Virus record (IMG/VR): IMGVR_UViG_3300037346_000580
Location: 1 to 64,000 of that record
From: a virus
Taxonomy: Duplodnaviria > Heunggongvirae > Uroviricota > Caudoviricetes
Strand: one strand, 5' to 3'
DNA: 64,000 bases
The notes below the pieces were generated by a model, which did no database searches, was not told where the DNA came from, and saw only the letters and a program-made list of their open reading frames with translations. A program made the translations under genes and the position numbers. Of the stretch, positions 3,530 to 56,957 are shown one piece after another (position 1 is the first letter of the stretch; the number at the start of each line of letters is the position of its first letter).

Positions 3530-3587
3530 TTAATTTAATCTATATATCGTCATCCGAGTAATTCCATTTAGTGTATAGTTATAAATT

Positions 3588-19637: not shown

Positions 19638-19678
19638 TTTTTTAATTTTAATTTTTAATTGTTATTATTTAATTATAT

Positions 19679-19715
19679 GGCAAATATACAAAAAAGATTC
19701 AATATAAAAAAATAT
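19679..19715 (-). promoter_or_regulatory. Conserved promoter motif instance (GGCAAATATACAAAAAAGATTCAATATAAAAAAA).
   Basis: Motif family. Upstream of 19080..19637. Confidence 0.5.
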
Positions 19716-19763
19716 TTATGGAATTATTTCATAAAATTGCTCTATAATAATCAAATAATATAC

Positions 19764-20336
19764 ATGAAGGAATCAGATAAATCAAAGGCCATAACTTTCT
19801 GTGGTGCCCCATCAAGTGGTAAGAGCACTTTGGCAGCCTCAGTTCATTATAGACTTAAGATAGGCAAGAAAAATTCTATATTTGTTGGCGAGGCTGCTAC
19901 TGACTATATAGCAGAATGGGGAATACCAAATACCCCAACGGACCAGCTGATTATATTCTATGAACAACTCGGAAGGGAGAGAATGTATGTTGGTTCTAAG
20001 GATTGGATAATATGTGATTCAAGTACGATCCTGAATTATTTCTACTTTAGATCTCTTTTTGGTAATCAGTTATCACTTAAAGATATTGCAACGATCAGCC
20101 ATATACAGAAAGAGATACTTAAGTCTCTCGGACAATGGCATAAAATTTATTACGTTCCACCCTTCTTGGAGGATGACGAAAATGATGGTATAAGGTTCCA
20201 TAATAGGGATGAAATACTTAGGCTTGATTCAATTATTAAAAATTATCTTGATCTTGAGAGAATACCATACATCGATTTATCTGGTATTCCTATGGATGAA
20301 AGGACTGATTGGGTATTAAAAGATCTACTACACTAG
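19764..20336 (+). CDS. P-loop NTPase of the AAA_28 / NadR ribosylnicotinamide-kinase-like type (Walker A FCGAPSSGKSTLA). Start placed at the ATG at 19764 rather than the TTG at 19659.
   Basis: Walker A motif and overall resemblance to NadR C-terminal kinase-like ATPases. Polynucleotide-kinase-like function is an alternative. Confidence 0.5.
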   Translation: MKESDKSKAITFCGAPSSGKSTLAASVHYRLKIGKKNSIFVGEAATDYIAEWGIPNTPTDQLIIFYEQLGRERMYVGSKDWIICDSSTILNYFYFRSLFGNQLSLKDIATISHIQKEILKSLGQWHKIYYVPPFLEDDENDGIRFHNRDEILRLDSIIKNYLDLERIPYIDLSGIPMDERTDWVLKDLLH

Positions 20337-21565: not shown

Positions 21566-21598
21566 AAAAAAGCTGAAGAGCAATCTTCAGCTTTTTTT
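21566..21598. terminator. Bidirectional terminator (A8-GCTGAAGA-GCAAT-CTTCAGC-T7).
   Basis: 7-8-bp stem with flanking homopolymers. Confidence 0.7.
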
Positions 21599-22153
21599 AT
21601 TGAATGTTTTATTATAAACGTCTTCTATTGCTATTATTCCATTTTGGTCAATCTCTCTGGTACCTATTCCTGCAAAATTATTAGTTAGTACCGGTGTTTC
21701 ACATTCAATCCAAAATAGGGATGAGTATTTAAACCATCTTCTAGCTAATTGGCAGAAAACAAAAACGTTAATTCCTTTGTCTATTGCCATCTGAACTGCC
21801 CATCCAGTTCCTCCACTTACCCTATTATTTTCTATTCTCGATATTGCAAAAACCGAATCTGAATTTGCAACCTGAAACCAATTTCTCCTCAATAAACTAT
21901 TAATATACGAATTTCTCGTCGGGTAGCTTCTTTTTAAGCTCTTATTTGCTTTTATTAAATCTAAATCTATTACTTTACTGAGTTCTTCAGTCATTCTTAT
22001 TGATGCATTACCTTTTGGCGTTTTATATCCCTCTATAAAGTAATGATTAAATTCGGTTATACCAAAACGTCTTCCAATAATTTCCCAAGTGATGTCCGCT
22101 CCAATTGCTCCTCCCGAATGTAGTACATATTGATCATTCGTCATTTCTGTCAT
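21587..22153 (-). CDS. SLOG / DprA(Smf)-like Rossmann-fold protein (LHSGGAIGADITWE ... GTGWAVQMAIDKGINVFVF).
   Basis: SGGAxGxD and GTxxxxxxA...vfv motifs of the DprA/LOG-like SLOG superfamily. Confidence 0.5.
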   Translation of the reverse strand: MTEMTNDQYVLHSGGAIGADITWEIIGRRFGITEFNHYFIEGYKTPKGNASIRMTEELSKVIDLDLIKANKSLKRSYPTRNSYINSLLRRNWFQVANSDSVFAISRIENNRVSGGTGWAVQMAIDKGINVFVFCQLARRWFKYSSLFWIECETPVLTNNFAGIGTREIDQNGIIAIEDVYNKTFNKKS

Positions 22154-23519: not shown

Positions 23520-24035
23520 TTATCTTTTGTATCTTCCCACTTTATTTATTTTTGTAAGCAAAGCACCAAATGCTGAATCTATGTCCTTATATTGTTGCAT
23601 TCCGTATCTGGAGCAAATTACATCGACATTTCCCTTTCTATAGAAGCCATCAGGACAGCAAACTATAACGGAATTTCCCCTATCTTTACACATTCCTATC
23701 TCCATAAGTGTTATTGGGCTTTTAGAATCTGGTAGAATATTGAAAAAAATTATATCAGAATCCTCAATATTATCAAGTTCCCAATTAACTTGTTCATTGA
23801 ATTGTGGATTAGACTGCTCCTGTACCCAGGAGGAATCCCATGAATTTCTTCTCGGATTAAAAAGATCTATATTATCGAAAAATCCAATTGTTTCATCTAT
23901 AGCCTTTAATCTATTATGGATTTCAGTTTGCCAATCCACAGAATTTCCCATTTCTATGGTTCCACCCAGAAATATTGATATTCCATCCTCCGTTTGTGAT
24001 AACGTTTCGTTATCTGGTTTTATGAGTGTTATCAT
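23520..24035 (-). CDS. Nucleoside 2-deoxyribosyltransferase-fold protein (NDT/DNPH1-like; FLGGTIEMG...IIFFNILPDSKSPITLMEIGMCKDRG).
   Basis: GG...G N-terminal motif and the D/E-containing 'GT..E.G' C-terminal signature of the NDT fold. Confidence 0.5.
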   Translation of the reverse strand: MITLIKPDNETLSQTEDGISIFLGGTIEMGNSVDWQTEIHNRLKAIDETIGFFDNIDLFNPRRNSWDSSWVQEQSNPQFNEQVNWELDNIEDSDIIFFNILPDSKSPITLMEIGMCKDRGNSVIVCCPDGFYRKGNVDVICSRYGMQQYKDIDSAFGALLTKINKVGRYKR

Positions 24036-28925: not shown

Positions 28926-28954
28926 ATATATAAAATTCTTTCGAATAAAAAAAA
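28921..28954 (-). promoter_or_regulatory. Conserved promoter motif instance (CACAAATATATAAAATTCTTTCGAATAAAAAAAA), fused to terminator hairpin 28947-28980.
   Basis: Motif family. Confidence 0.5.
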
Positions 28955-29000
28955 TCCTGAATGATATATTCAGGATTTTTGATCTATATTTTCTGGTGCA

Positions 29001-30749
29001 TTATTGAATTTTTAAACGTTCTCTAATCTCAGTTAGACTCACCTGATTGTGGAATTTACCATCCTCGTAGATTAAAACCAATAATCCAGATTCTTCTTGT
29101 TCCTTGGTACATTCAGTATTTACTTCCAATTGATCTTTCCCGTCATACTTGATCTCATAAGGTAAAGCATCAGGTCTGTTATTAAAGACCTGACAGAAAC
29201 CTTTTAATGATTTTTTAGTACCGTTGTCTGTTATTGGATCTTTATAGATATTATATTCGGTTGTAATATAATCAGTTTGTCCATCAGGATCAACACCTGC
29301 AAATTCTTTAGTTGAAAACCAAGAACCCTTAGCCGCATATCCAGCAGAGTCCCGGGTTAGCATAACATATGTATAAGAGCCAACACCAACCACTATGTTC
29401 GTAGATGCAAATATTTTAGATGCTAATCTTGTATAGATAGCAATTTGTCTTTCCAAGTTGATTGAATCTCCATAGATTGCTCCAATGTGTGGATCTAATA
29501 CTTTAAATCCTTGTTCATTAATAGTACCACCAAAAATGTTCCAAAGTAATTCTATTACCCCTTTAAATTCAGATTCATTTATAATTTTATCACCAAATTT
29601 ATGAACATTATTTCCATAGATTTTATTATGTAAATCCTTAAAATCCTTTACCCTATCACTTAAGCTAGGGTTTGAATTAATGCCACAGATAATATCTACC
29701 GGGTCCCCTGAGTCGGGACGAATTACCAATTTCCCATCTCTTGCAAGAATTTCTTTCTTAAGTCTTGGCAGAATGTGTGTGATGACTTTCCATAAATCCA
29801 TTGTATCAGAAACCACTGAAAGTATTCCCTTAGGAAATTTTTTCAACCAATCACGAAGATTGAGTAACTCTGCAATTGCTAGATAGTCTGGGTTATCAAT
29901 GGATCCATCGGAAGGAGAATCAGATTCATAGTATTTTAGAATTTCATGGTTTAGTAAACCTGATTTTAATTTTTTCTCATAGAAGAAAATACCAGTACAA
30001 GTCACACTGTGTTCTGAAGCATTAACACTATAAACTGGAACATCATTTTCGTCAAAATCATAATAGTATCTTGATGCTGGGATAACATTTAGTGTGTCAC
30101 TACCTGAATTACTCATTGCGTGTCCTAATCCAACTGCGATTGAAGTAAATGGATTACCACCTCTGCTGTGGAAATCGTGACACATGAAATCAGCTAGCCA
30201 AAGATTTTCTGGATCTGTTTTAGTAACCCACTCAACAGCATTCTGTTTGAATCTATGTGCAATAGTAGCAGCTGTAGGTAATTGCCAAGCTAATTTAGAC
30301 ACCAGTGTTTCTAAATAAAGCCCAAGCCAAGCATAGCCATCAACTGTATTGATCCCTGTCATATGTGGGATATTTGGTTTTGTGAATGTTCCTTCAGGGA
30401 TGGCCTTGATTTTAACTGGAAGGTAACCAAGTTTATGTAGTTCGGAGAAGTGGCCAGCTTCATAATCCATCATAAGATACTTTGACATATCTCTACCGAA
30501 TCTTTCTGCCACCTCAACTGGTTGGTCAAAGAATAACTCCTGGAAGTTACTATGAATGTATCTCCATACCAACTGTTCTCCTGCTGACATAATGCCATCA
30601 ATTGATGGGTGCATATATTTTATGCTTCTGGGAATCCAGGTCCAATACTCAATCGATGTGTTTTCAGCCAACATTGCTTTGTGACCAACTTTGTAACCAT
30701 CCGATTCGTAGAGAGGGTTGATTTTAAACGTCTTGTTTAATTTTTCCAT
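29001..30749 (-). CDS. nadV: Nicotinamide phosphoribosyltransferase (NAMPT/NadV) family enzyme, 582 aa. Could alternatively be the ADPR-PP-utilising Namat variant.
   Basis: SDGYKVGH near the N-terminus (the DSYK(V)TH motif) and HSRGGNPFTSIAVGLGHAMSNSGSDT (the GSRG...GTDT motif of NAMPT). Confidence 0.75.
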   Translation of the reverse strand: MEKLNKTFKINPLYESDGYKVGHKAMLAENTSIEYWTWIPRSIKYMHPSIDGIMSAGEQLVWRYIHSNFQELFFDQPVEVAERFGRDMSKYLMMDYEAGHFSELHKLGYLPVKIKAIPEGTFTKPNIPHMTGINTVDGYAWLGLYLETLVSKLAWQLPTAATIAHRFKQNAVEWVTKTDPENLWLADFMCHDFHSRGGNPFTSIAVGLGHAMSNSGSDTLNVIPASRYYYDFDENDVPVYSVNASEHSVTCTGIFFYEKKLKSGLLNHEILKYYESDSPSDGSIDNPDYLAIAELLNLRDWLKKFPKGILSVVSDTMDLWKVITHILPRLKKEILARDGKLVIRPDSGDPVDIICGINSNPSLSDRVKDFKDLHNKIYGNNVHKFGDKIINESEFKGVIELLWNIFGGTINEQGFKVLDPHIGAIYGDSINLERQIAIYTRLASKIFASTNIVVGVGSYTYVMLTRDSAGYAAKGSWFSTKEFAGVDPDGQTDYITTEYNIYKDPITDNGTKKSLKGFCQVFNNRPDALPYEIKYDGKDQLEVNTECTKEQEESGLLVLIYEDGKFHNQVSLTEIRERLKIQ

Positions 30750-30763
30750 TTTTATTAATTATT

Positions 30764-31222
30764 TTATTTTTCCTCAATTATTTCTAAATCTTCAGCACTG
30801 AATTCAAAAATGGTCTCCCTATCAACGAAGGTTGATTTATTATCTTTAAACCATTTTATAAATTTTCTTCTATAGTAAGCAGTGTACGGATCTATAGAAA
30901 ATATTCCACTGTGTATGTAACTCATCCCATCACCGAGTAATCTTATTGAATCTATATTCTCGTTCTCGTTCCCGTCTTTGTACATAAATACAATCGATAA
31001 ATTTGTGAATTTTGGGATGCTTGAAAATTTACCAACAAGATCTTTTCTGGAGAAGTGATAAAATCCGGATGATTGCCAGTTGAATTTATATTCACCGCTG
31101 GTAAGAAGATCATAATTTTCTTTGTATTTGTAGAAGTTCCTGCAGTTTATTAATGTTCCTACTAGGACCATTAATAAAAATGCAAAGATCGTGCTAAATA
31201 TAATTGCTGCTGGTAATGTCAT
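30764..31222 (-). CDS. N-terminally membrane-anchored protein (152 aa), paralogue of 31224..31616.
   Basis: TM helix. Shared C-terminal motif IRLLGDGMSYIHSGIFSIDPYTAYYRRKFIK. Confidence 0.5.
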   Translation of the reverse strand: MTLPAAIIFSTIFAFLLMVLVGTLINCRNFYKYKENYDLLTSGEYKFNWQSSGFYHFSRKDLVGKFSSIPKFTNLSIVFMYKDGNENENIDSIRLLGDGMSYIHSGIFSIDPYTAYYRRKFIKWFKDNKSTFVDRETIFEFSAEDLEIIEEK

Positions 31223-31223
31223 A

Positions 31224-31616
31224 TTAAAGTGATTTTATATTGTCGTTTCGATTTTCCTTCATTACCTTTCTAATTTTATTTTTCCAGTAGAGAGTATATG
31301 GATCCAGATATATGAATGATGCTTTATGAATGTATTTATTTTTACCTAATAGCTTTATTGATCCCTCACCATTATCAAAGAATAATATTTCATCATCGTT
31401 GAATGCGTTGTCACCAGGTCTTCTAAAATGGACGAGGTTACTGTACTTGCTAAGATATTCATTATAAACATAATCACCCACTAATAAGGCATTGTATGTT
31501 AATTTATAGGATGGATAATTGTCTCGGAGCGTTAGAAATGCGGCAAAACCAAAAATGAATAGGAAAGATCCCATTGCTATTAATACTGAATAAATTAAAG
31601 AAATTGTTGTTGACAT
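31224..31616 (-). CDS. N-terminally membrane-anchored protein (130 aa), paralogue of 30764..31222.
   Basis: IKLLGKNKYIHKASFIYLDPYTLYWKNKIRK. Confidence 0.5.
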   Translation of the reverse strand: MSTTISLIYSVLIAMGSFLFIFGFAAFLTLRDNYPSYKLTYNALLVGDYVYNEYLSKYSNLVHFRRPGDNAFNDDEILFFDNGEGSIKLLGKNKYIHKASFIYLDPYTLYWKNKIRKVMKENRNDNIKSL

Positions 31617-31693
31617 GTTTATATTTGTTGATTATAAATTAATTCTCTATCGTTTGGCTGGATTATTGCTTTTTTCATTGTACTTTTAATTAT

Positions 31694-31747
31694 AGGGTAA
31701 ATATAAACAAAAATTCCGAATAAAAAAAATTTATTCGGAATTTTTTA
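31694..31747 (-). promoter_or_regulatory. Conserved promoter motif (variant GTAAATATAAAC) fused to bidirectional hairpin terminator TTCCGAATAAA-A5-TTTATTCGGAA.
   Basis: Motif family plus perfect inverted repeat. Confidence 0.5.
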
Positions 31748-31748
31748 T

Positions 31749-32081
31749 CTAACAATCGATATATCTTATTTCGATCCCATTTTTAACCGCATATTCTATC
31801 TCTTCTGCAACCCCTCTTGAGTGATTCCAACCCTCCATCTTGCAGACATGTAGTTCGTCACATTTATTGAGAAACGTCAAACAAAAGTTTTGCCAGAATA
31901 CCCAGTCTGTTGGCATAGATTTAAACCCCACTAGTGTGTGTCCATATGTTATGGGTGAAAAAGCTACGTGTCCTTCTGAACATAAATCCGCTGCTATTTC
32001 TGATATTTTTTCAAAGTTTTCTTCTCGCTTCTTATCATCTGGATGACTATACGGGGAAGCTAGGTAAATTATTTTACTCAT
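31749..32081 (-). CDS. Second nucleoside 2-deoxyribosyltransferase-fold (DUF4406/NDT-like) protein (IIYLASPYSH ... EGHVAFSP).
   Basis: YLA(G/S)PYS N-terminal signature of the NDT-like fold. Confidence 0.45.
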   Translation of the reverse strand: MSKIIYLASPYSHPDDKKREENFEKISEIAADLCSEGHVAFSPITYGHTLVGFKSMPTDWVFWQNFCLTFLNKCDELHVCKMEGWNHSRGVAEEIEYAVKNGIEIRYIDC

Positions 32082-32411
32082 TTAAAAATCCATTAAATTA
32101 TCTAATTCTTTAAGTGTCATGAAGTTCGGTGTCTCATTTTCAATCTGGATCCTTGCATATGTTGTGTATGTTGGATACCCTGTATGCCCACACCCTCCTA
32201 TAGGATCTTCCAATTCCTCCAATGTATATGTCACCCATAAATCGGAATCATTTCTATTGGAATATTCGTATATAAGTTCAATGTCATTTTTGTCGGATGG
32301 ATGTATTTGATATAGTGATTTTTGGCATACCACATCTATATCGTTACATTTCCCACAACATGATATAACACACCACATAAAACCATCTTTTTTGATAAGA
32401 CCTCTTAGCAT
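32082..32411 (-). CDS. Cys-rich hypothetical protein (109 aa).
   Basis: ORF. Confidence 0.4.
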   Translation of the reverse strand: MLRGLIKKDGFMWCVISCCGKCNDIDVVCQKSLYQIHPSDKNDIELIYEYSNRNDSDLWVTYTLEELEDPIGGCGHTGYPTYTTYARIQIENETPNFMTLKELDNLMDF

Positions 32412-32680
32412 TTGTAAAGACCACCATCTTCATCCCTCCCCGGGAATCCATTATTTTTCCCTGTGAATCCTGGATTAACTTCGAAATTGTGTTCTTTGCC
32501 AAGATCCGCTAACGAAGGATTGGTTTTTTTTGGTTGTTCCGCCTCATGTTCAAAAAGACCATTTAGTTTTTTCTTAATAGTATTTGTTTGATCAACTGTT
32601 AGGCTGTCACCTGCAGCTGCAAGAAATCCATCCAACCAAACTACGAATGTTTGAAGCTTATTCATCGTCTCCGTCTTCAA
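32405..32680 (-). CDS. Small protein (91 aa), paralogue of 32873..33109 (FVVWLDGFL... / FCFWLQGFF...).
   Basis: Shared N-terminal motif. Confidence 0.4.
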   Translation of the reverse strand: MKTETMNKLQTFVVWLDGFLAAAGDSLTVDQTNTIKKKLNGLFEHEAEQPKKTNPSLADLGKEHNFEVNPGFTGKNNGFPGRDEDGGLYKC

Positions 32681-32861
32681 AAATTATACCCTCGTTATCT
32701 ATTAGAATGTCGTCAGCTATATCAGCAAGCACCTCAGGTGCTTCAATAAGAGCATCATCATCCTGCATAATCATCTCGCCAATTCCATGCTTTTCGAAAT
32801 ATGCTGTCAATTTATTAATTGCAGCTTCCTTCTTTTCTGGTGTCCAAACTACTTTAATCAT
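32658..32861 (-). CDS. Small acidic protein (67 aa).
   Basis: ORF. Confidence 0.35.
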   Translation of the reverse strand: MIKVVWTPEKKEAAINKLTAYFEKHGIGEMIMQDDDALIEAPEVLADIADDILIDNEGIIFEDGDDE

Positions 32862-32872
32862 TTTGATTTATT

Positions 32873-33109
32873 TTAACATTTTACTAATATGTTTCCTGGG
32901 TTATCCCTTTTTTTCTTTGGTGTACCGTCATGGATAGCTTGCATTTCGTCCTGCACGGCAGCATCATCTGAATATGATGGATCTATCTCATGATAGAAAA
33001 CCAATTTTAAATGATTCTTAATTATTTCCACCTGTCTAGGAGTTAATTGCTCGGTTTCTGACAGTTCAAAAAATCCCTGTAACCAGAAACAAAATTCTAC
33101 TGATTTCAT
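32873..33109 (-). CDS. Small protein (78 aa), paralogue of 32405..32680.
   Basis: Shared motif. Confidence 0.4.
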   Translation of the reverse strand: MKSVEFCFWLQGFFELSETEQLTPRQVEIIKNHLKLVFYHEIDPSYSDDAAVQDEMQAIHDGTPKKKRDNPGNILVKC

Positions 33110-33164
33110 TATTTTAAAATTTTAAAAATTATGCCACTATTAATTTTTTTACATCACCTATCAT

Positions 33165-33854
33165 TTATTTTTCTCTATTTTCTTTATTAATAATTGCTCG
33201 TGCATTTTTTAAAAGATTTAACATTTCTTCTGAAACAATTTCAGTATGTTCATATTTTTTAGTAATACTATTCCATCTTGTATTTTCGGTATAATAATTC
33301 CGAAATTTATGACATTTTAATAATGCAATGTGCCAATCTAAATCTTTACTTAAATAAATTAAATGCTTTTTATAAAAAACAATAACCTGTGCAAATTCAC
33401 TTTTATTAAACTTACATTCATTCATACGCATTAACACTCTTTTTTTGAGTTCTCTTGCTGGTGCAGTATCCTTTTCTTGATGATTAGAATACATTCTAAT
33501 TACATCAACTATAGAACTTTCTGTAGTATCTAAGTCATTAAGAATGGACTTTAATTGTAAATTTCTTTGATTCTCAAGTTTTTCAGCTAATTCTATAAAT
33601 TCAGTATAGCCAGTCTCCTGTATTTCCATCAGAAGATCTACAATAAGCACATCAACATTTAACTCCTTACAGCATTTTATTGCATTTTCTTCAGTCAATT
33701 GAACTCCTGTCTCAATAAGATCCAGTGCTCTATCGAATCCTTTTTCTGTTATTATAGGTCCACCTTCTATGAACCCTCCCTCCCTCAATTTGTTACACCA
33801 GTAAACAAATAGGATTGCTTGATCCTTAAGATTCTCGAAGCTCATTCTTAACAA
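33165..33854 (-). CDS. Hypothetical protein (229 aa).
   Basis: ORF. Confidence 0.5.
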   Translation of the reverse strand: MLRMSFENLKDQAILFVYWCNKLREGGFIEGGPIITEKGFDRALDLIETGVQLTEENAIKCCKELNVDVLIVDLLMEIQETGYTEFIELAEKLENQRNLQLKSILNDLDTTESSIVDVIRMYSNHQEKDTAPARELKKRVLMRMNECKFNKSEFAQVIVFYKKHLIYLSKDLDWHIALLKCHKFRNYYTENTRWNSITKKYEHTEIVSEEMLNLLKNARAIINKENREK

Positions 33855-34302
33855 GTGTTAATGCTTGACCTAATAAATTTAGGCCCAGCCAATATGATGG
33901 ATTCTCTACATTTTCTGCATTCTCATCAAGGCCAATACCCCAAATTTTATCAAATGGTGATGCCTCAACGAAAAATCTATTACCTGTCAATAACATTTCT
34001 TTCTTTAAGCCCTCGTTCTGTGAGAATTTTGCAAGATTTCCCTCGTATACAATGGCCAAGCAATTTGCTTCCCATACTCCTTTATCAAAATTTTTGATCA
34101 TCCTGCCAAACTTTTTTTGTTCTTTTGGATTTTTCTCCTCCATGATCTTTTCAGCAATATCATCATCACCGAATAACAATGCTTTTTGGTGCATCATATA
34201 TTGCTCGCATGAATTATATTCTATTCTACCAATGGTCATATTTGATTTATGCCATTGTGAGTAAATCCCATTCCAGAAAAATACGTATTTATCTGTTGTC
34301 AT
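33826..34302 (-). CDS. NADAR (DUF1768/YbiA-like) domain protein, a putative ADP-ribosyl / N-glycoside hydrolase.
   Basis: FFWNGIYSQWH ... EQYMMHQKALLFGD ... LLTGNRFFVEASPFDKIWGIG matches the NADAR signature (FxW...SNW, EQYxMxxKA, LxxTGxxxLVExSPxDxxWGxG). Confidence 0.7.
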   Translation of the reverse strand: MTTDKYVFFWNGIYSQWHKSNMTIGRIEYNSCEQYMMHQKALLFGDDDIAEKIMEEKNPKEQKKFGRMIKNFDKGVWEANCLAIVYEGNLAKFSQNEGLKKEMLLTGNRFFVEASPFDKIWGIGLDENAENVENPSYWLGLNLLGQALTLVKNELRES

Positions 34303-34690
34303 ATTTTAAGTATATTTTAGTGTAATATTCATCCGGATTAGAAAGATCCTCGAATATTGCGGTTTCTATTTTAACTTTTTTGAGGTCACATTTTAAAGAC
34401 TCGCATTTTTTCATGATTGAGCTTAATTTTGAATCCTTAATTTCTATTCTCTGCATAACCTCGTATTGAATTAGTAATAAAAGGTTAGCCACGTTCCCTC
34501 TCGTTGGTCTGAATTCATTTTAACATCGGACCATCCGGCTGAGATGTATCTAGTTTTCAATAAATTAAAATGCTTACTATTCATTCCTAATGGAACATCT
34601 AGGTTGATGGTCTCACCCTTCTCTATTGAATTTTTGGATAGTTTTTCGTCCAATTTAAACTCAAAATCCTCGACCTCCCTGATGAATGCT

Positions 34691-35797
34691 TTATTTAGAT
34701 ATTCCGGTGATATTGCCATGGCTTGGTCCGTATTTATGAGTTTGATCGTTTATCATTGTAATTGTTCCTGTTGTTAGAGTTTTTAAGGTCTCCTTAAAAA
34801 CTTGTATAGCCGCCGCTACGTCATCTTTATGAACCATCTCTACTGTAGTATGCATATACTTCAATGGGCTAGCTATGATTGCCGTAGGGATGTTTTCAAG
34901 AAAGAATGAAACTGTGTCGTTACCATAAGAGCCAACTGATAGTTGCATAGGGATTTCTTTTTTCTTAGCAGCCTCCCTCACAATACCAATTAAATCCTTG
35001 TGGTTTTGTGACGAGTACTCGATAACCGGACCTGCACCTCCTTTAATGTCACCAGATTTTGCTTTGTTCATCTTGGGTGAATTTGTATTGTGTGTCACGT
35101 CATGCACCAATGCGATGTCAGGTCTTATCGTCTGTGCAATCAATCTGGCTCCAAACAAACCAACTTCTTCTTGTACTGCGTTAACCACATAAAGATCGAA
35201 AGGTAGAGTTGTTCCCTCCTCTTTAAGTTCCCTAACAACCTCTGCAATGATGTATCCACCAATCTTATTATCCAGTGATCTACCGACATAATATTTACCC
35301 ATCTCGAAAAATTGCTGATCAAAGGTAACACAGTTACCAACTTCGATACCCATTTTTAAAACTTTCTTTGCTGAATCGACTCCAAGATCAATCCAAAGTT
35401 CATGAACTTCCGGACCCATCTCAACTCCTTTTTCTCTTACGTGAATAGCAGGCCATCCAAAAACTCCAGGTACTTTTTTATCTGTATGAGTATGAACTAT
35501 AACTGTCATCGAAGGTGCAATCATGTTGTCCGATCCTCCGTTAGTTTTAACCCTTACCATACCATTTGCTTCAATTTCAGTAACGATCCAGGAAATCTCA
35601 TCGCAATGGGCTTCGAGTACAACTTTTTTATCGCCTGTCCCTTTGATGAGTCCGTATGCTGTTCCATAAGCATCCACCCTTATTTCATTAACGATGGGTC
35701 TAACATAGTCAACCCATACCTTTTGTCCTTCAATTTCATTTCCAACTGGTGAAAATGCATTTAAGTAATCTTTTAAAAACTGTTTATTTTTTTCCAT
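34691..35797 (-). CDS. M42-family metallopeptidase (glutamyl aminopeptidase / FrvX-YsdC-like).
   Basis: Overall similarity to M42 aminopeptidases (HCDEIS, SLDNKIGG, HTTVE near the C-terminus), 368 aa. Confidence 0.55.
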   Translation of the reverse strand: MEKNKQFLKDYLNAFSPVGNEIEGQKVWVDYVRPIVNEIRVDAYGTAYGLIKGTGDKKVVLEAHCDEISWIVTEIEANGMVRVKTNGGSDNMIAPSMTVIVHTHTDKKVPGVFGWPAIHVREKGVEMGPEVHELWIDLGVDSAKKVLKMGIEVGNCVTFDQQFFEMGKYYVGRSLDNKIGGYIIAEVVRELKEEGTTLPFDLYVVNAVQEEVGLFGARLIAQTIRPDIALVHDVTHNTNSPKMNKAKSGDIKGGAGPVIEYSSQNHKDLIGIVREAAKKKEIPMQLSVGSYGNDTVSFFLENIPTAIIASPLKYMHTTVEMVHKDDVAAAIQVFKETLKTLTTGTITMINDQTHKYGPSHGNITGISK

Positions 35798-35799
35798 TT

Positions 35800-36003
35800 T
35801 TATCCTATTTCGTATTCTTTAAATATTTTTTCTATGTGAGATTCTAAAGCATCCATTGCTTTCTTGGCTTTCTTGCAAAGCTCCTTTAATTCCGGATCCT
35901 CTTCACCTTTGTAACCATAATGCTGAACCCAGTAACCAAGTCCCTCGTTGTCGATTTCTGCAAATAATTGCTCTGCTTCATCTTCATTTAATAATATTGA
36001 CAT
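35800..36003 (-). CDS. Small acidic protein (67 aa).
   Basis: ORF. Confidence 0.35.
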   Translation of the reverse strand: MSILLNEDEAEQLFAEIDNEGLGYWVQHYGYKGEEDPELKELCKKAKKAMDALESHIEKIFKEYEIG

Positions 36004-36185
36004 ATATTAGATTTTAGCTTTTAATATTCTTTTCTTTTAGTTCTAAATCCCCATTTGTACTGTGCCATCCATTCCACACCATAGTCGTCTATATAGAGAT
36101 TTACTGGCACCCCGTTACACACATCAGTAAATAATGAGCATTGGTATTTCATGGTCAATCTGCTTATAATTCTTTCTACCATTAT

Positions 36186-36785
36186 TTATTTTCCATATAT
36201 TACGATTGTTACCTTGCAATCTTTTAGTTCATCCTGAATTATTCTTCTAACCACATTAAAATCTCCACCTGCCAAACCGCAGCCAATCTGGGGTAACCCA
36301 ACATGTCTACCTTTGAATTGATGATTTATTTTCCTCATGCATAGTCTAAGTGCATCATAATCAAGGGGTCTAGCTGTTCCTCCCTCGTGATTTAAACCAA
36401 ATCCGTACTGAGTATATGAATTAACAACAGCTAAATCAAATTCGGCTATATCAAATTCGTTAGTTCCACTTGTGTATGTATTGACTTTCCAATCAATCTG
36501 ACCAAGTTTATTGTAATCACCTCTTTTACCCATGCCAATTTCCAATGGAAACTTATCACAGCCAAAAGCCTTAGCCATCTGTGGTGCTATCCCTGCTCCC
36601 ATCGTTGAAAAACAGTTGCAGCCGTGCGAGATTACCTGGAATTTTCCATGTTTTGCCATGGCTACCAGATCGCCAACAACCTCTCTGTATGCCGGATGTA
36701 TAGGTTCGTTCCTTGAATCCTCATGCAAACAGTACTTGTTGCATTCACCATCACAATACATGCAACCTCTAGCTCCCTTGCCCAT
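36186..36785 (-). CDS. Macro-domain protein of the TARG1/OARD1 type (ADP-ribose glycohydrolase-like) with an N-terminal Cys cluster.
   Basis: ISHGCNCFSTMGAGIA resembles the HCISEDCRMGAGIA core of TARG1-type macro domains. GLAGGDF C-terminal glycine loop. Confidence 0.55.
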   Translation of the reverse strand: MGKGARGCMYCDGECNKYCLHEDSRNEPIHPAYREVVGDLVAMAKHGKFQVISHGCNCFSTMGAGIAPQMAKAFGCDKFPLEIGMGKRGDYNKLGQIDWKVNTYTSGTNEFDIAEFDLAVVNSYTQYGFGLNHEGGTARPLDYDALRLCMRKINHQFKGRHVGLPQIGCGLAGGDFNVVRRIIQDELKDCKVTIVIYGK

Positions 36786-37090
36786 TATTTAATATCTTCT
36801 GATTTAGTTGTCCCATTCTTGCTGATGTGAACAACTATATTATCTAGTGTTTCCTTTGTCCCCTCCTTGTAGCCCTTCTGTCTTGAATTAGCAGATATAC
36901 AGGCAACCCCGATTGATAATAAAAACCAACCTATTGCATTTAGAGGAGAATGCATCTTAATATTAAAAGGGAAGAACGAGATCTCAGTATCTCCGATGAA
37001 TAGGAATCCCATTATTAATACCAATCCTATGATTATAATTTCTAACATGTTTTTCATTTTATTTGATTTTGTAAATGTACAAAGTGTCAA
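36785..37090 (-). CDS. Small membrane protein (101 aa).
   Basis: ORF. Two hydrophobic helices. Confidence 0.4.
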   Translation of the reverse strand: MTLCTFTKSNKMKNMLEIIIIGLVLIMGFLFIGDTEISFFPFNIKMHSPLNAIGWFLLSIGVACISANSRQKGYKEGTKETLDNIVVHISKNGTTKSEDIK

Positions 37091-37271
37091 CCTTTTTACC
37101 GTCTGTTGTTAATTTAGTCATTGGTTCTATTCTGGTTTTAGACTCGATATAACCGTTGTCGTCCCAGATAGTTTTGCCGATAAAAACACCAATGCTTATC
37201 GCAAGAGCAAAAACAAAAATTATAACTATTGCCATTCCTGTGAATAGGCCTTCCGCTGGATTTCCCATCAT
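37059..37271 (-). CDS. Small membrane protein (70 aa).
   Basis: ORF. One TM helix. Confidence 0.35.
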   Translation of the reverse strand: MMGNPAEGLFTGMAIVIIFVFALAISIGVFIGKTIWDDNGYIESKTRIEPMTKLTTDGKKVDTLYIYKIK

Positions 37272-37273
37272 GT

Positions 37274-38179
37274 TTATATTACTTTAAATTGTTTAAGTTT
37301 ATGAAGCTCGTTATCATTTTTTAATGAAAATTCTGGATTGCTAATATCAACATAACTGTTTGTTGTGTAAATACAATCAAAATGGTCATTCAGTGGTTTT
37401 AACCCTGCTGAGAATATCCCATGTGTTACAACCAGAAATATTTTACCTGTTGCTCCCATTACTCTAGCTGCTTTAGCAATCTCAATAAAGGTTCTTCCGC
37501 CGTCACAAATATCATCCAGTATGAATAAGTCCTTATCTAGATCCTCTTTTTTTAAAGGCACCTCTGTGTGGGTAATTTTACCAGTTTTAACGTCACGATG
37601 TTTGGAGGCTATGATAACGTCGTTTTTGTATTCGATGCTCTCTGCAACATCATAAACCTTTTTGAGAGCTCCTGCATCGGGAGAAATTAAACGCATCTTT
37701 GAGTAATCGGATGACCCGTTATTGAAATAGTCTGTAAAGACAAATGTGATTAATCCTCCAGTATATTGGGTTAACTTTTTGAAGTTTCCGATACAAGCCT
37801 CAGACACGTCTGAGTGCGGATCAAGTATTGTTACCTTGGAAAATCCTTGTGAGTTAATAATAGGAGCAAGAACCTCCTTAATATAATTAACACTACCTGT
37901 TTCAAATTTCCTGTCAGATCTTGCACCTAATAAATAGCTTATCTCGAGTGATGTTTCTTTAACCCCAAGCTCCCTAAGAGCTTTATTTGCACAAACGATA
38001 AGTTCAAGATCCAGAAATGAATCTATTCTTGATTTTATTGACACTGACTCAATTTTCTCAAACATATCATATTTAAGAACTTCTCCCTCTAATATTGTGA
38101 TCGACTGCTGTCCATCAGGAAATTTGGAGACTTTAAATTTGATACTGTAGTTGCACGGTTCTGAAAGATTTAATATCAT
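37274..38179 (-). CDS. prs: Ribose-phosphate pyrophosphokinase (PRPP synthetase) family protein. Could be the ADPR-pyrophosphate synthetase (Adps) variant.
   Basis: FPDGQ, ILDPHSD, ISPDAGALK and the PRPP-binding motif ILDDICDGGRTF align with E. coli Prs FSDGE, VDLHAEQ, VSPDIGGV and LVDDMIDTGGTL. Confidence 0.75.
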   Translation of the reverse strand: MILNLSEPCNYSIKFKVSKFPDGQQSITILEGEVLKYDMFEKIESVSIKSRIDSFLDLELIVCANKALRELGVKETSLEISYLLGARSDRKFETGSVNYIKEVLAPIINSQGFSKVTILDPHSDVSEACIGNFKKLTQYTGGLITFVFTDYFNNGSSDYSKMRLISPDAGALKKVYDVAESIEYKNDVIIASKHRDVKTGKITHTEVPLKKEDLDKDLFILDDICDGGRTFIEIAKAARVMGATGKIFLVVTHGIFSAGLKPLNDHFDCIYTTNSYVDISNPEFSLKNDNELHKLKQFKVI

Positions 38180-38246: not shown

Positions 38247-38993
38247 TTATGAGTTTATATTATTCCAAAATTCATTTTTAATTAATCTCCCGTTGATCGG
38301 ACTGTACATCTCGCTAACTTTAAGAGCATCTGAAAACTCCTCTATCGTGCAGCCTCTCTCGGCGTATGGATTATTAAATCTTCCATATATGTCATCACTG
38401 CCGAAATGTGGGGTTTCTAGAATCTCCATTGGATTATACATATCAACCACACCCCCCTTTATTGAATATTCAATGATAGCCTCGAGTGATGTATCATCTT
38501 CTCCAGCTTCCTGATTCATTAATTGTACCTTCATTTCAAGGAATGGAAATGCATCCGCTATTTTTACACAATCCTCATAGACATCCTGTACACTTGGATA
38601 TTTACCAATGTTATAATTACTGGACCCTATTATACCGTCCCAGTTGCACCATCCGTGTGGTCCTCCAACCCACGAGGAAACTATTCTGGAATTGCTTAAA
38701 TAATTAAGATTCAAAACACCATATTTTTCAGCTTCTTTTTCTTTAAAATGCCAGGCATCGTTAAAATCCAGATTGTGTTTTTCTTTGATTGCATCTATAA
38801 GATCACTCCATGATGCATCTATACCATAGATTAATTTATTAATCTGTTTTTCGAATTCCCTGTCGTTTGAACAGAAGCTAAATCGATCCGTCATTATATT
38901 TATAGCCATCGCCTGTTGTTTAGTAACAGGTTTACCAACAACAACTAGTGCTGGCCATTTAGGAAGTCCCTTATTGAATAATTCTTCGTTCAT
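38247..38993 (-). CDS. Hypothetical protein (248 aa).
   Basis: ORF. Conserved promoter immediately upstream. Confidence 0.5.
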   Translation of the reverse strand: MNEELFNKGLPKWPALVVVGKPVTKQQAMAINIMTDRFSFCSNDREFEKQINKLIYGIDASWSDLIDAIKEKHNLDFNDAWHFKEKEAEKYGVLNLNYLSNSRIVSSWVGGPHGWCNWDGIIGSSNYNIGKYPSVQDVYEDCVKIADAFPFLEMKVQLMNQEAGEDDTSLEAIIEYSIKGGVVDMYNPMEILETPHFGSDDIYGRFNNPYAERGCTIEEFSDALKVSEMYSPINGRLIKNEFWNNINS

Positions 38994-39007: not shown

Positions 39008-39060
39008 TGCAAATATAAAAAAAAGATTCGGAATAAAAAAATTTATTCCGAATCTTTTTT
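39008..39060 (-). promoter_or_regulatory. Conserved promoter motif (TGCAAATATAAAAAAAAGATTCGGAATAAAAAAA) fused to hairpin terminator GATTCGGAATAAA/TTTATTCCGAATC.
   Basis: Motif family plus 13-bp inverted repeat. Confidence 0.55.
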
Positions 39061-49383: not shown

Positions 49384-49396
49384 TTTTTTAATTTGT

Positions 49397-56889: not shown

Positions 56890-56957
56890 ATTTTGATTTT
56901 CCTACTCTGTTAACGGTTTTCGGATTTCACCGTATGTTATATTATATGCTGAATTAA

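What the first reader, a model, noticed from the sequence alone, without database searches (positions are those of the whole stretch)
29001..38179. Nine-kb island of NAD+ salvage and ADP-ribose removal enzymes: NAMPT-like, PRPP-synthetase-like, NADAR, TARG1-like macro domain, NDT-fold protein
A single 9-kb block carries a NAMPT/NadV-family enzyme (29001-30749), a Prs-family pyrophosphokinase (37274-38179), a NADAR/YbiA-like hydrolase (33826-34302), a TARG1-type macro domain (36186-36785) and an NDT-fold protein (31749-32081). Elsewhere in the window there are a second NDT-fold protein (23520-24035), a SLOG/DprA-like protein (21587-22153) and a NadR-like P-loop kinase (19764-20336). By established knowledge, phage Nampt+Nmnat (NARP2) or Adps(Prs-homologue)+Namat(Nampt-homologue) (NARP1) pairs rebuild NAD+ after depletion by Thoeris, DSR, SIR2 or SEFIR-type defences. 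Macro and NADAR domains reverse protein or DNA ADP-ribosylation such as that by DarT. This combination, which also includes an M42 peptidase and several unknown ORFs, does not match the adjacent two-gene NARP layouts. Here the Prs-like and Nampt-like genes are 7 kb apart, and no Nmnat/NatV is visible. Whether the pair makes NMN from PRPP or NAD+ from ADPR-PP cannot be decided from sequence by eye.
Basis: partly seen in the sequence, partly recalled or inferred. Interest (0 to 1): 0.8.

Follow-up and report, generated by a model that had tools for sequence, protein, structure and literature searches.

The report
Stretched-out phage NAD+ rebuilding gene cluster
This 9-kb stretch of an uncultivated giant phage most likely carries the known three-enzyme pathway that rebuilds NAD+ after bacterial defences destroy it, with 17 other genes between its first and last enzyme; it is a new example of a known system.

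Summary

- **29001-30749** is a Namat-type enzyme, not a Nampt: 243-341 bits to Adps-linked Namats against 69-150 bits to Nmnat-linked Nampts. It has the IYGDSI and GSYTYVMLTRD signatures.
- **37274-38179** is an Adps-type kinase, not a cellular Prs: 113-141 bits against 56 bits to E. coli Prs, with the DDICDGGRTF motif.
- **36186-36785** is a homologue of Adpp, the ADPR-1''-phosphate phosphatase of Vibrio phage Gary (35% identity, E 2e-18).

Order and strand (Adps, macro, Namat) match the published NARP1-AP operon, but 17 genes separate Adps from Namat. No Nmnat is present in the window. Two ~430-kb relatives keep the whole island in order. In 70 of 77 related viral loci Adps lies 0-9 kb from Namat.

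The NADAR gene is most simply an AdfN-like anti-DarT1 enzyme. The M42 peptidase looks like a passenger.

One result is not in the literature I searched. NDT-fold genes sit beside NARP1 core genes more often than chance would give: PF15891-like in 34 of 77 loci and DUF1937 in 9 of 77.

Verdict: a new member of a known kind, in an unusually dispersed layout.

The parts
37274..38179 (-). Adps-type ADP-ribose pyrophosphokinase (Prs homologue), 301 aa; first enzyme of NARP1
   Evidence: - phrog_619, E 4e-64.
- Below the TIGR01251 Prs cut-off: 88.5 bits against 113.
- blastp 113-141 bits to Adps of phi92, Ceto, RYC, FelixO1, phiR1-37 and DAC15, and 121 bits to Gary Adps, against 56 bits to E. coli Prs.
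- Adps-type motifs DPHSDV, KHRDVKTG, DDICDGGRTF and THGIFS.
- The catalytic Lys is kept: SPbetaL1 K162 corresponds to K193 here.
36186..36785 (-). Macro-domain protein, 199 aa; probable Adpp (ADPR-1''-phosphate phosphatase) of NARP1-AP. It has a 32-aa Cys-rich N-terminal extension.
   Evidence: - 34.9% identity over 172 aa, E 2.4e-18, to Vibrio phage Gary KNV71_gp137, the purified Adpp.
- phrog_335 'phosphatase', E 7e-42.
- PDB: BT1257 (2fg1) E 4e-11, 5e3b E 3.5e-6, Poa1p and TARG1 weak.
- Conserved H(G/Q)CNC, GIAP and IGxGLAGGD motifs.
- Third gene downstream of Adps.
29001..30749 (-). Namat-type nicotinamide ADP-ribose transferase (Nampt homologue), 582 aa; last enzyme of NARP1
   Evidence: - The best PDB hit is SPbetaL1 Namat (9w5w/9w5x, 302 bits), against Xcc Nampt 120 bits and human NAMPT 85 bits.
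- blastp 243-341 bits to Adps-linked Namats, against 69-150 bits to Nmnat-linked Nampts (KVP40, Moby, B614, BcepSaruman).
- The catalytic core is kept: D17, Y19, F193, R196, D218, H247, R344, D346.
- Clamp helix GSYTYVMLTRD and clamp loop S-I-K44-Y45.
- Below the bacterial PRK09198 cut-off: 356 bits against 405.
33826..34302 (-). NADAR-domain ADP-ribosyl N-glycohydrolase, 158 aa
   Evidence: - PF08719, E 6e-49.
- TIGR02464, 144 bits.
- PDB 8bau NADAR, E 4e-16.
- Conserved in L014 and L020, and found next to Namat in L023.
- Present in 10 of 77 related NARP1 loci.
31749..32081 (-). DUF1937 protein (nucleoside deoxyribosyltransferase-fold clan), 110 aa; function unknown
   Evidence: - PF09152, E 5e-17.
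- phrog_355, E 1e-21.
- PDB 1t1j, E 3e-11.
- Present in 9 of 77 related loci, 4 of them within 500 bp of a core gene (expected 0.8, P 0.006).
23520..24035 (-). Nuc_deoxyri_tr2 (PF15891) NDT-fold protein, 171 aa, 5 kb downstream of Namat; a recurrent NARP1 neighbour of unknown function
   Evidence: - PF15891, E 2e-31.
- PDB 4mcj (uncharacterised), E 5e-29.
- Homologues in 34 of 77 related loci, 17 of them within 500 bp of Adps or Namat (expected 4.3, P 1e-7), all on the Namat strand.
- Conserved NPRR and SPITLxExG motifs, with Glu at the NDT nucleophile position.
34691..35797 (-). M42-family aminopeptidase, 368 aa; probable passenger gene inside the island
   Evidence: - PF05343, E 2e-67.
- Found only in the two closest relatives, 2 of 89 loci.
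30764..31616 (-). Two paralogous small ORFs (130 and 152 aa) directly upstream of Namat. The 130-aa product starts with a hydrophobic helix.
   Evidence: - No Pfam or PHROG hit.
- Both hit the same L014 region.
- The translation shows an N-terminal hydrophobic stretch.
32082..33854 (-). Five ORFs of unknown function (109, 91, 67, 78 and 229 aa) between NADAR and DUF1937. The 229-aa ORF shares only its first ~100 residues with the relatives.
   Evidence: - No informative family hits.
- L014 and L020 carry a different block of about 2.2 kb here.
35800..37271 (-). Small ORFs flanking the macro gene: 70 and 101 aa upstream, 53 and 67 aa downstream; function unknown
   Evidence: - Conserved in L014 and L020.
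- Only weak hits to PHROGs of unknown function.
39019..39060 (-). Terminator-like hairpin (A-run, 19-bp stem, T-run) upstream of the block that starts with 38247-38993 and Adps
   Evidence: Consensus scan. RNA fold -22.3 kcal/mol, z -5.7.
31709..31745 (-). Terminator-like hairpin between DUF1937 and the Namat sub-block. It shares the TTCCGAATAAA core with the 39-kb hairpin.
   Evidence: RNA fold -18.8 kcal/mol, z -6.1. The same element sits after DUF1937 in L020, at 9356-9395.
28950..28980 (-). Terminator-like palindromic hairpin directly after Namat
   Evidence: RNA fold -14.1 kcal/mol, z -4.1. Conserved after Namat in L014 (11673-11705) and L020 (11697-11729).
21587..22153 (-). SLOG-superfamily-fold protein, 188 aa, from a large unannotated family; link to the island unproven
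   Evidence: - 843 homologues, none with an informative Pfam domain.
- AlphaFold model pLDDT 95.2.
- Present in only 3 of 89 related loci.
19659..20336 (+). AAA_28 P-loop protein (kinase-like), 225 aa from a TTG start; no Nmnat domain
   Evidence: PF13521, E 1.6e-13. No PDB or NCBIfam match of note. Conserved in L014, L020 and L035.

Best explanation
[quoted passage not shown] The mechanism below is inferred from the published pathway.

1. When a host defence (Thoeris, DSR, SIR2-HerA, SEFIR and similar) cleaves NAD+ to ADP-ribose and nicotinamide, the Prs-like enzyme (Adps, 37274-38179) uses ATP to turn ADP-ribose into ADPR-pyrophosphate.
2. The Nampt-like enzyme (Namat, 29001-30749) then joins ADPR-pyrophosphate to nicotinamide and gives NAD+ directly. 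No Nmnat step is needed.
3. The macro protein (36186-36785) acts as Adpp. It removes the 1''-phosphate from ADPR-1''-phosphate, the product of RES-type (aRES) NADases, so that this product can also enter the pathway.

Shown here: family membership, residue conservation, gene order and conserved linkage. Inferred: the enzymatic activities and the anti-defence effect.

The other genes are most simply read as separate counter-defence or passenger genes that have accumulated in a variable accessory region of a ~430-kb phage. The NADAR protein is probably an AdfN-like DNA guanine de-ADP-ribosylase against DarT1. The M42 peptidase and the small ORFs are probably passengers.
For: **Namat membership**
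- The best solved-structure hit is SPbetaL1 Namat (302 bits), against 120 bits for Xcc Nampt and 85 bits for human NAMPT.
- Scores are 243-341 bits to six Adps-linked Namats, including tested or near-tested ones (SPbetaL1, FADO, Gary, Bas63-like Henu11), against 69-150 bits to four Nmnat-linked Nampts including KVP40 NadV.
- The diagnostic columns are IYGDSI and GVGSYTY..TRD in Namats, against IQGDG and GMGGGLLQ in Nampts.
- All catalytic-core residues of the Namat crystal structure are kept (residues taken from PMC12774641).
- The clamp loop has Lys44-Tyr45, the Bas63-type arrangement described in that paper.

**Adps membership**
- 113-141 bits to Gram-negative-phage and crAss-like-phage Adps and 121 bits to Gary Adps, against 56 bits to E. 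coli Prs.
- Below NCBIfam's Prs cut-off.
- Adps-type motifs are present, and the Lys mutated in Osterman 2024 (K162A) is kept.
- phrog_12872 is a Prs-Nampt fusion family that both proteins hit.

**Adpp membership**
- E 2e-18 to the purified Gary enzyme (biochemistry in bioRxiv 10.64898/2026.01.28.702374).
- The order Adps, macro, Namat on one strand is the same as in Gary and Ceto.

**Linkage**
- The whole island is syntenic in two relatives at 85-87% Namat identity.
- Adps lies within 10 kb of Namat, on the same strand, in 70 of 77 non-redundant related viral loci. The gap forms a continuum from 0 to 9.2 kb.
- Macro lies between the two genes in 18 loci, and is within 500 bp of a core gene in 13 of 21 loci that have it (expected 2.6, P 1e-7).

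**No alternative route**
- No Nmnat in the window or in any of the 89 loci.
Against: - Clamp-helix position 7, an adenine-stacking aromatic in the crystal structure, is Met463 here. The same Met occurs in 17 of 85 Adps-linked relatives.
- Adps and Namat are 6.5 kb and 17 genes apart. That is outside the 'within 10 genes' rule used to define NARP1.
- A strong terminator-like hairpin lies between them, so they may not be co-transcribed.
- The macro gene is the third gene from Adps, not the first or second.
- SPbetaL1 and FADO Adps score only 60-71 bits to the window protein, close to the 56 bits of E. coli Prs. Clade membership therefore rests on the Gram-negative-phage Adps branch. I built no formal tree with many cellular Prs sequences.
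- No activity was measured.
- Only 64 kb of a genome of probably ~430 kb was seen.
Confidence: 0.78

Rival explanations
1. Classical salvage (NARP2-like). The Prs-like enzyme makes PRPP from ribose-5-phosphate and the Nampt-like enzyme makes NMN. A host NadD or NadR, or a phage Nmnat outside the window, finishes NAD+.
For: - Both proteins hit the general Prs and NAPRTase/Nampt families.
- Namat retains NMN-forming activity from PRPP in vitro according to PMC12774641.
- Clamp position 7 is Met rather than an aromatic.
- Only 64 kb of the genome was examined.
Against: - The window protein scores 2-4 times higher to Adps-linked Namats than to Nmnat-linked Nampts, and it lacks the IQGDG and GMGGGLLQ Nampt signatures.
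- The Prs-like protein is below the Prs family cut-off and carries Adps motifs.
- No Nmnat in the window or in 89 related loci.
- Osterman 2024 found no phage with both pathways, and 94% of KVP40-type Nampts come with an Nmnat.
Confidence: 0.07
2. The macro protein is not part of the NAD+ pathway. It is a DarG/TARG1-like hydrolase that removes ADP-ribose from DNA or protein. Together with NADAR it makes an anti-DarTG pair, and both merely sit in the same accessory region as NARP1.
For: - Weak matches to the DarG macro domain (NF048014, E 1e-5) and to TARG1/OARD1 (E 0.1-0.4).
- The family is very widespread in phages (2440 records), most of which are not known NARP1 carriers.
- Phage DarG-like antitoxin mimics exist (abstracts).
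Against: - The match to the biochemically tested Gary Adpp (E 2e-18) is far stronger than to DarG or TARG1.
- The macro gene lies between Adps and Namat in 18 of 70 related loci, and within 500 bp of a core gene five times more often than chance.
Confidence: 0.15
3. Extended funnel. NADAR, DUF1937 and the PF15891 NDT-fold protein (and ARH in some relatives) are further adaptor enzymes. They would convert non-canonical NAD+-derived products (N-glycosidic ADPR conjugates, cyclic ADPR isomers, NMN) into ADP-ribose or nicotinamide for Adps and Namat, as Adpp and RyDEP are known to do.
For: - In 77 related loci, PF15891-like genes occur in 34, NADAR in 10, DUF1937 in 9 and ARH in 1, all on the Namat strand.
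- Proximity (within 500 bp) to a core gene is enriched for NDT2 (17 of 34 against 4.3 expected, P 1e-7), DUF1937 (P 0.006) and NADAR (P 0.014).
- The NDT2 family keeps the nucleophile Glu and an NPRR motif.
- There is precedent for adaptor enzymes: Adpp and RyDEP.
- Iyer et al. 2022 noted NADAR next to NadV and NadM.
Against: - All phage NADARs tested so far act on guanine-ADP-ribosylated DNA, which explains the gene without any link to NARP1.
- NDT-fold enzymes usually act on deoxynucleosides or deoxynucleotides.
- The cultured NARP1 phages examined lack these genes in the fetched flanks.
- Loci were de-replicated only at 90% Namat identity, so shared ancestry inflates the statistics.
- In the window itself NDT2 is 5 kb from Namat.
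Confidence: 0.25

Closest known systems
NARP1-AP of Vibrio phage Gary (Adps, Adpp, Namat; Osterman et al. 2026, bioRxiv 10.64898/2026.01.28.702374)
   Same: The same three protein families, in the same order and on the same strand. Window proteins against Gary: 33% identity / 121 bits (Adps), 35% / E 2e-18 (Adpp), 34% / 243 bits (Namat).
   Different: Gary has a compact 3-gene operon of about 3 kb. Here two small ORFs separate Adps from the macro gene and 14 genes (5.4 kb) separate the macro gene from Namat. A hairpin lies in between. The macro protein has an extra Cys-rich N-terminus, and Namat is 45 aa longer through insertions.
NARP1 of Bacillus phages SPbetaL1 and FADO and coliphage Bas63 (Osterman et al. 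2024; Namat structures 9w5w/9w5x, PMC12774641)
   Same: Catalytic core residues, the clamp loop and most of the clamp-helix motif of Namat are kept. The Adps catalytic Lys is kept.
   Different: Clamp position 7 is Met rather than Tyr/Phe. Adps is only 28-32% identical to the Bacillus-phage enzymes. The genes are not adjacent.
NARP2 of Vibrio phage KVP40 (NadV Nampt plus NatV Nmnat/Nudix)
   Same: A Nampt-fold enzyme that uses nicotinamide, and the same counter-defence purpose.
   Different: The window protein is 25% identical (117 bits) to KVP40 NadV and lacks its IQGDG and GMGGGLLQ signatures. No Nmnat is present.
AdfN and other phage NADAR proteins (anti-DarT1 DNA ADP-ribosylglycohydrolases; PMC11257639, PMC11125620)
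   Same: A stand-alone phage NADAR domain of about 160 aa.
   Different: It is not from a T4-like phage. It lies inside a NARP1 locus. Activity and specificity are untested.
RyDEP plus NARP1 in mycobacteriophage DyoEdafos (bioRxiv 10.64898/2026.05.28.727677)
   Same: The same idea of an accessory enzyme encoded beside NARP1 that produces linear ADP-ribose for it.
   Different: No RyR (PF02026) domain was found in any island ORF scanned. The accessory genes here are of macro, NADAR and NDT fold.

Membership tests
Namat (NARP1) | Nampt-fold enzyme with the conserved catalytic core (SPbetaL1 D13, Y15, F189, R192, D215, catalytic His, R306, D308) | tested here: met
   The window has D17, Y19, F193, R196, D218, H247, R344 and D346.
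Namat (NARP1) | Clamp-helix motif G-S-X-phi-X-phi-X-phi-T-R-D, with aromatics at positions 3 and 7 | tested here: inconclusive
   The motif here is GSYTYVMLTRD. The length, G-S, Tyr at position 3 and T-R-D fit; position 7 is Met. Met occupies this position in 17 of 85 Adps-linked relatives. In the paper, single clamp mutants lost only 1.3-1.7-fold activity.
Namat (NARP1) | Clamp loop whose third residue is Arg, Lys or Tyr (a stacking residue follows when it is Lys or Tyr) | tested here: met
   P-R-S-I-K44-Y45, the Bas63-type arrangement.
Namat (NARP1) | Groups with Adps-associated rather than Nmnat-associated homologues | tested here: met
   243-341 bits against 69-150 bits. PDB 302 bits against 120 and 85 bits. 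These are score comparisons, not a full phylogeny.
Namat (NARP1) | Prefers ADPR-PP over PRPP and makes NAD+ directly | not testable with these tools
   Needs an enzyme assay.
Adps (NARP1) | Prs-family protein in the phage Adps clade, distinct from cellular Prs | tested here: met
   113-141 bits to phage Adps against 56 bits to E. coli Prs. Below the TIGR01251 cut-off. DDICDGGRTF, DPHSDV and KxRDxxTG motifs. Caveat: only one cellular Prs was compared, and the Bacillus-phage Adps score only 60-71 bits.
Adps (NARP1) | Catalytic Lys (SPbetaL1 K162) | tested here: met
   K193 in the window; invariant in all 14 aligned sequences.
NARP1 pathway | Adps and Namat in close proximity (operational rule: Namat within 10 genes of Adps) | tested here: not met
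   17 called genes (6.5 kb) lie between them. Linkage is nevertheless conserved: the region is syntenic in L014 and L020, and the gap ranges from 0 to 9.2 kb across 70 related loci.
Adpp (NARP1-AP) | Macro-domain protein homologous to the tested Gary Adpp, which Osterman et al. report as Poa1p-like | tested here: met
   E 2.4e-18 and 35% identity to KNV71_gp137. Poa1p itself matches only weakly by sequence (E 0.014-0.09).
Adpp (NARP1-AP) | Encoded within two genes of a NARP1 core gene | tested here: inconclusive
   It is the third gene downstream of Adps. In 10 of the 21 related non-redundant loci that carry the macro gene, it lies within 100 bp of a core gene.
Adpp (NARP1-AP) | Dephosphorylates ADPR-1''-phosphate; catalytic residues as mutated by Osterman et al. 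| not tested
   The mutated residues are given only in a figure that is not held. The activity needs an assay.
NARP2 | KVP40-type Nampt together with an Nmnat in the same genome | tested here: not met
   The Nampt signatures are absent. tblastn with Moby Nmnat gives E > 0.8 on the window. There is no Nmnat HMM hit in the window or in the 89 loci. Only 64 kb of the genome was seen.
NARP3 | PnuC-like transporter plus a bifunctional NadR-like enzyme (Nmnat plus kinase) | tested here: not met
   The only candidate (19659-20336) has an AAA_28 P-loop domain alone. No PnuC or Nmnat domain turned up in the roughly 70 window ORFs scanned.
NADAR / AdfN | NADAR domain | tested here: met
   PF08719, E 6e-49; 8bau, E 4e-16.
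NADAR / AdfN | Removes ADP-ribose from guanine in DNA and counters DarT1 | not testable with these tools
   Needs an assay. All phage NADARs tested so far have this activity.
SLOG superfamily (21587-22153) | SLOG Rossmann-like fold with a Gly-rich nucleotide loop | tested here: met

The most novel reading that the evidence does not exclude
In this clade of uncultivated phages, NARP1 may be a hub fed by several accessory enzymes, not only the published macro phosphatase. In particular, the uncharacterised PF15891 NDT-fold family (and DUF1937, NADAR and ARH) would convert further NAD+-derived defence products into ADP-ribose or nicotinamide. That would make a set of undescribed NARP1 extensions aimed at non-canonical NADases or ADPR-based signals.
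Probability: 0.25. Interest if true: 0.6.

Novelty: new member of a known kind. Interest (0 to 1): 0.38.

Why it matters
- **Detection.** Automated NARP1 detection relies on adjacency: Namat within 10 genes of Adps, and macro within 2 genes. This locus would be missed. In 18 of 70 related viral loci the core genes are more than 2 kb apart. The pathway may therefore be under-counted in large uncultivated phages.
- **Range.** The locus extends NARP1-AP to a ~430-kb phage lineage. Its nearest cultured-phage protein matches are phages of Tenacibaculum, Cellulophaga and Leptolyngbya.
- **Signature.** It shows a natural Met variant at an adenine-stacking position of the Namat clamp.
- **Candidates for experiment.** The comparative survey gives concrete, testable candidates for new accessory enzymes of NAD+ reconstitution: PF15891 NDT-fold, DUF1937, NADAR and ARH.

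Tried and rejected
- **Source of the window.** Megablast of the island against 50,697 phage records found nothing. The window has no close cultured relative.
- **PDB entry 9ke8.** I suspected it was KVP40 NadV. It matches no phage record above 60% identity, so I dropped it as a reference.
- **Cronobacter phage leE.** Its Nampt is split by a frameshift. I used KVP40, Moby, B614 and BcepSaruman instead.
- **RyR/RyDEP.** No RyR domain was found in any island ORF scanned.
- **Small ORFs.** PHROG scans gave only families of unknown function.
- **Promoters.** The sigma-70 scan was uninformative: 47 sites against 48.8 expected.
- **M42 and M28 peptidases.** I rejected them as part of the pathway. They occur in only 2 of 89 related loci.
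- **NARP3.** Considered because of the AAA_28 protein, and rejected.

Full report
**Source and context**

The window is almost identical in extent to a 63.9-kb Logan assembly contig (SRR12911269_8876). It is about 34% G+C, and nearly all genes are on the minus strand. It has no nucleotide-level relative among 50,697 phage records.

The closest relatives are two IMG/VR contigs of 430 and 434 kb (L014 and L020), whose Nampt-like proteins are 85-87% identical. The window therefore probably comes from a very large uncultivated phage. The nearest cultured-phage protein matches are Leptolyngbya phage Lbo-JY46, Tenacibaculum phage PTm1 and Cellulophaga phages. The host assignment is only an inference.

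The surrounding genes are typical of an accessory, RNA-repair and counter-defence region: Thg1-like, HAD_SAK_2, a DnaG zinc ribbon, SmpB, a CCA/polyA-polymerase head, an RNA ligase and an IS607-like TnpB/resolvase pair.

**Checking the observation**

- Pfam confirms NAPRTase, NADAR, DUF1937, Nuc_deoxyri_tr2, AAA_28 and Peptidase_M42.
- The Prs-like and macro proteins are weak in Pfam. They are strong in PHROGs (phrog_619, E 4e-64; phrog_335, E 7e-42) and against solved structures.
- That protein belongs to a family of more than 800 unannotated proteins. An AlphaFold model built on 41 of them is confident (pLDDT 95).
- The 'NadR-like' protein has only the P-loop half.

**PRPP route or ADPR-PP route**

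Three papers define the discriminating features:

- Osterman et al. 2024 (NARP1 and NARP2).
- Lan et al. 2026 (Namat structures and the selectivity clamp).
- Osterman et al. 2026 (NARP1-AP with a macro-domain ADPR-1''-phosphate phosphatase, Adpp).

*The Nampt-like protein.*
- Its best solved-structure match is SPbetaL1 Namat (302 bits). Xanthomonas Nampt scores 120 bits and human NAMPT 85 bits.
- I fetched reference loci and compared locally. It scores 243-341 bits to Namats that sit next to an Adps (DAC15, SPbetaL1, FADO, Henu11, Ceto, Gary).
- It scores only 69-150 bits to Nampts that sit next to, or co-occur with, an Nmnat (BcepSaruman, KVP40, B614, Moby).
- The alignment shows class-specific columns: IYGD(S/A)I and G(V/I)GS(F/Y)TY..TRD in Namats, against IQGDG and GMGGGLLQ..RD in Nampts. 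The window protein has the Namat versions.
- All catalytic-core residues are kept.
- In the clamp, Phe392 is Tyr459. Arg40 is replaced by Lys44-Tyr45, the Bas63-type solution described in the paper. Tyr396 is Met463.
- That Met is not an oddity of this sequence. It occupies the position in 17 of 85 related Namats, including ones with an Adps gene directly adjacent.

*The Prs-like protein.*
- It scores 113-141 bits to Adps proteins of phages of Gram-negative hosts and of the crAss-like Bacteroides phage DAC15, and 121 bits to Gary Adps. It scores 56 bits to E. coli Prs.
- It falls below NCBIfam's ribose-phosphate diphosphokinase cut-off.
- It has the motifs shared by Adps sequences (DPHSDV, KxRDxxTG, DDICDGGRTF, THGIFS) where E. 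coli Prs has DLHAEQ, KRRPRAN and DDMIDTGGT.
- The Lys mutated to inactivate SPbetaL1 Adps (K162) is K193 here.
- Caveat: the Bacillus-phage Adps are so divergent that they score little better than E. coli Prs. I compared only one cellular Prs.

*The macro protein.*
- It is 35% identical (E 2.4e-18) to KNV71_gp137 of Vibrio phage Gary, the protein that was purified and shown to convert ADPR-1''-phosphate to ADP-ribose.
- Its matches to DarG, TARG1 and Poa1p are much weaker.

*Nmnat.* None is detectable in the window.

**Layout**

In transcription order the island reads:

1. Adps
2. Two small ORFs
3. The macro gene
4. Two small ORFs
5. M42 peptidase
6. Two small ORFs
7. NADAR
8. Five ORFs
9. DUF1937
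10. A hairpin
11. Two paralogous small ORFs
12. Namat
13. A hairpin

Seventeen called genes lie between Adps and Namat. Genes mostly abut or overlap. Only three intergenic gaps exceed 50 bp.

Two of these gaps hold stable A-run/stem/T-run hairpins, at 31709-31745 and 28950-28980. A third hairpin lies at 39019-39060. Their fold z-scores are -4 to -6. The hairpins after DUF1937 and after Namat are conserved in relatives. Adps and the macro gene may therefore be in a different transcription unit from Namat, or the hairpins may be read through. This is unresolved.

**Comparative evidence that this is one system**

- L014 and L020 keep the entire island in order, from the small ORFs next to Adps through to the M28 peptidase beyond Namat. 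L020 also covers Adps itself; the L014 locus starts just downstream of it. They differ by local indels: a different 2.2-kb block replaces the C-terminal part of ORF 33165-33854, and L014 has an extra AAA_33 kinase.
- More distant relatives show compact versions, with Adps-Namat adjacent (L015, L017), Adps-macro-Namat (L016), and Adps-macro with a short gap before Namat (L022, L024).
- Others carry accessory genes. L023 has Adps, then an NDT-fold gene, the macro gene and NADAR before Namat. L018 and L019 have Adps, then an ADP-ribosylglycohydrolase directly before Namat.
- I surveyed 89 IMG/VR loci with home-made HMMs, which reduce to 77 clusters at 90% Namat identity. Seventy have Adps on the same strand, at a gap that runs continuously from 0 to 9.2 kb. 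Eighteen have a gap above 2 kb.
- The macro gene is present in 21 clusters, and lies between the core genes in 18.
- The window's layout is thus the stretched end of a continuum, not a different system.

**The other genes**

- *NADAR.* Stand-alone phage NADARs tested so far remove ADP-ribose from guanine in DNA and counter DarT1. That is the most economical reading.
- *Peptidases.* The M42 and M28 peptidases occur only in the two closest relatives. I treat them as passengers.
- *NDT-fold genes.* This result was unexpected. PF15891-like genes are the commonest neighbour of NARP1 in this clade (34 of 77 clusters). Half of them lie within 500 bp of Adps or Namat, against 4.3 expected from random placement within the same loci (P about 1e-7).
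- DUF1937 (9 clusters, P 0.006) and NADAR (10 clusters, P 0.014) show weaker enrichment. The macro gene serves as a positive control (13 of 21, P about 1e-7).
- The PF15891 homologues keep a Glu at the position of the NDT nucleophile and an NPRR motif. The nearest structure, 4mcj, is uncharacterised.
- No paper in the searchable library mentions Namat together with deoxyribosyltransferase, or connects NARP1 functionally with NADAR. Iyer et al. 2022 did note NADAR genes near NadV and NadM.
- Caveats: the loci are related to one another, the null model is crude, and the cultured NARP1 phages I fetched lack these genes in the flanks examined. In the window itself the PF15891 gene is 5 kb downstream of Namat.

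**Verdict**

The island is best explained as NARP1-AP: Adps makes ADPR-pyrophosphate from ADP-ribose, Namat joins it to nicotinamide to give NAD+, and Adpp admits ADPR-1''-phosphate from RES-type NADases. Family membership, residue conservation, gene order and conserved linkage are shown here. The activities are inferred from homologues.

It is a new member of a known kind with an unusually dispersed layout that rule-based detection would miss. The most novel reading still open is that the NDT-fold, NADAR and ARH neighbours are further feeder enzymes for NARP1. I put that at about one in four.

Noticed in passing
window 1-3587 (minus strand): A long ORF of more than 1170 codons runs off the start of the window. 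It encodes collagen-like Gly-X-Y repeats (GTSGSSGTSG...). This accounts for the 43-47% G+C of the first 4 kb, against about 34% elsewhere. It is possibly a collagen-like fibre protein.
   Followed up: partly
window 3588-5325 (minus strand): An IS607-like pair inside the phage genome. One gene is a TnpB (OrfB_IS605 plus Cas12f1-like TNB domain, 390 aa). It overlaps a serine resolvase-type transposase (190 aa).
   Followed up: no
window 40914-41753, 45477-45968, 50524-50976, 52818-53555, 57562-58698: A concentration of RNA and tRNA repair or translation-rescue genes: Thg1-like, HAD_SAK_2, SmpB, a CCA/polyA-polymerase head and an RNA ligase. The Thg1-like protein is 42% identical to FADO_72, which also lies 2 kb from FADO's NARP1. 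Thg1 homologues occur in 12 of 89 related NARP1 loci. ARAGORN found no tmRNA to partner the SmpB.
   Followed up: partly
window 36690-36785 (N-terminus of the macro protein): The macro protein has a 32-residue N-terminal extension that the Gary Adpp lacks. It contains CMYCDGECNKYC, a possible zinc knuckle, and is conserved in L014 (CMYCNGECDRSC) but not in L020.
   Followed up: no
window 39019-39060 and 31709-31745; L020 9356-9395: Intergenic hairpins share the palindromic core TTCCGAATAAA/TTTATTCGGAA, flanked by an A-run and a T-run. They are bidirectional-terminator-like and conserved between relatives.
   Followed up: partly
window 22610-23500 and 24127-26055: A short Gp23-like (major capsid fold) protein of 296 aa and a 642-aa SPFH/Band-7 protein lie downstream of Namat. 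Their homologues recur in 10 and 13 of 89 related NARP1 loci. Their function there is unknown.
   Followed up: no
window 33165-33854; L014 4613-7197; L020 5442-8004: This is an indel hot spot. The 229-aa window ORF shares only its first ~100 residues with a 109-aa ORF in the relatives. The relatives then carry four or five other genes (about 2.2 kb) that are absent from the window.
   Followed up: partly
L018 6592-7344 and L019 3112-3864: An ADP-ribosylglycohydrolase (PF03747) gene ends 3 bp before Namat in these related loci. It is another ADPR-processing enzyme embedded in a NARP1 locus.
   Followed up: partly
L029 1885-2766 and 3810-4682: The Namat gene is split into two pieces about 1 kb apart. 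This suggests an inserted element (intron, intein or homing endonuclease) or an assembly problem.
   Followed up: no
window 11730-11817, 49396-49452, 56899-56933: Odd RNA calls. ARAGORN reports an 88-nt 'tRNA-Asp' with anticodon ATC. Rfam instead reports a 57-nt tRNA match at 49396-49452 and a DUF805b RNA motif at 56899-56933. The two tools do not agree on any tRNA.
   Followed up: no
window 21587-22153: This SLOG-fold protein belongs to a family of more than 840 proteins with no Pfam annotation. Many lie on contigs of 386-462 kb. The motifs HSGGAxGxD and GGTGWAVQMA are invariant or nearly so.
   Followed up: yes
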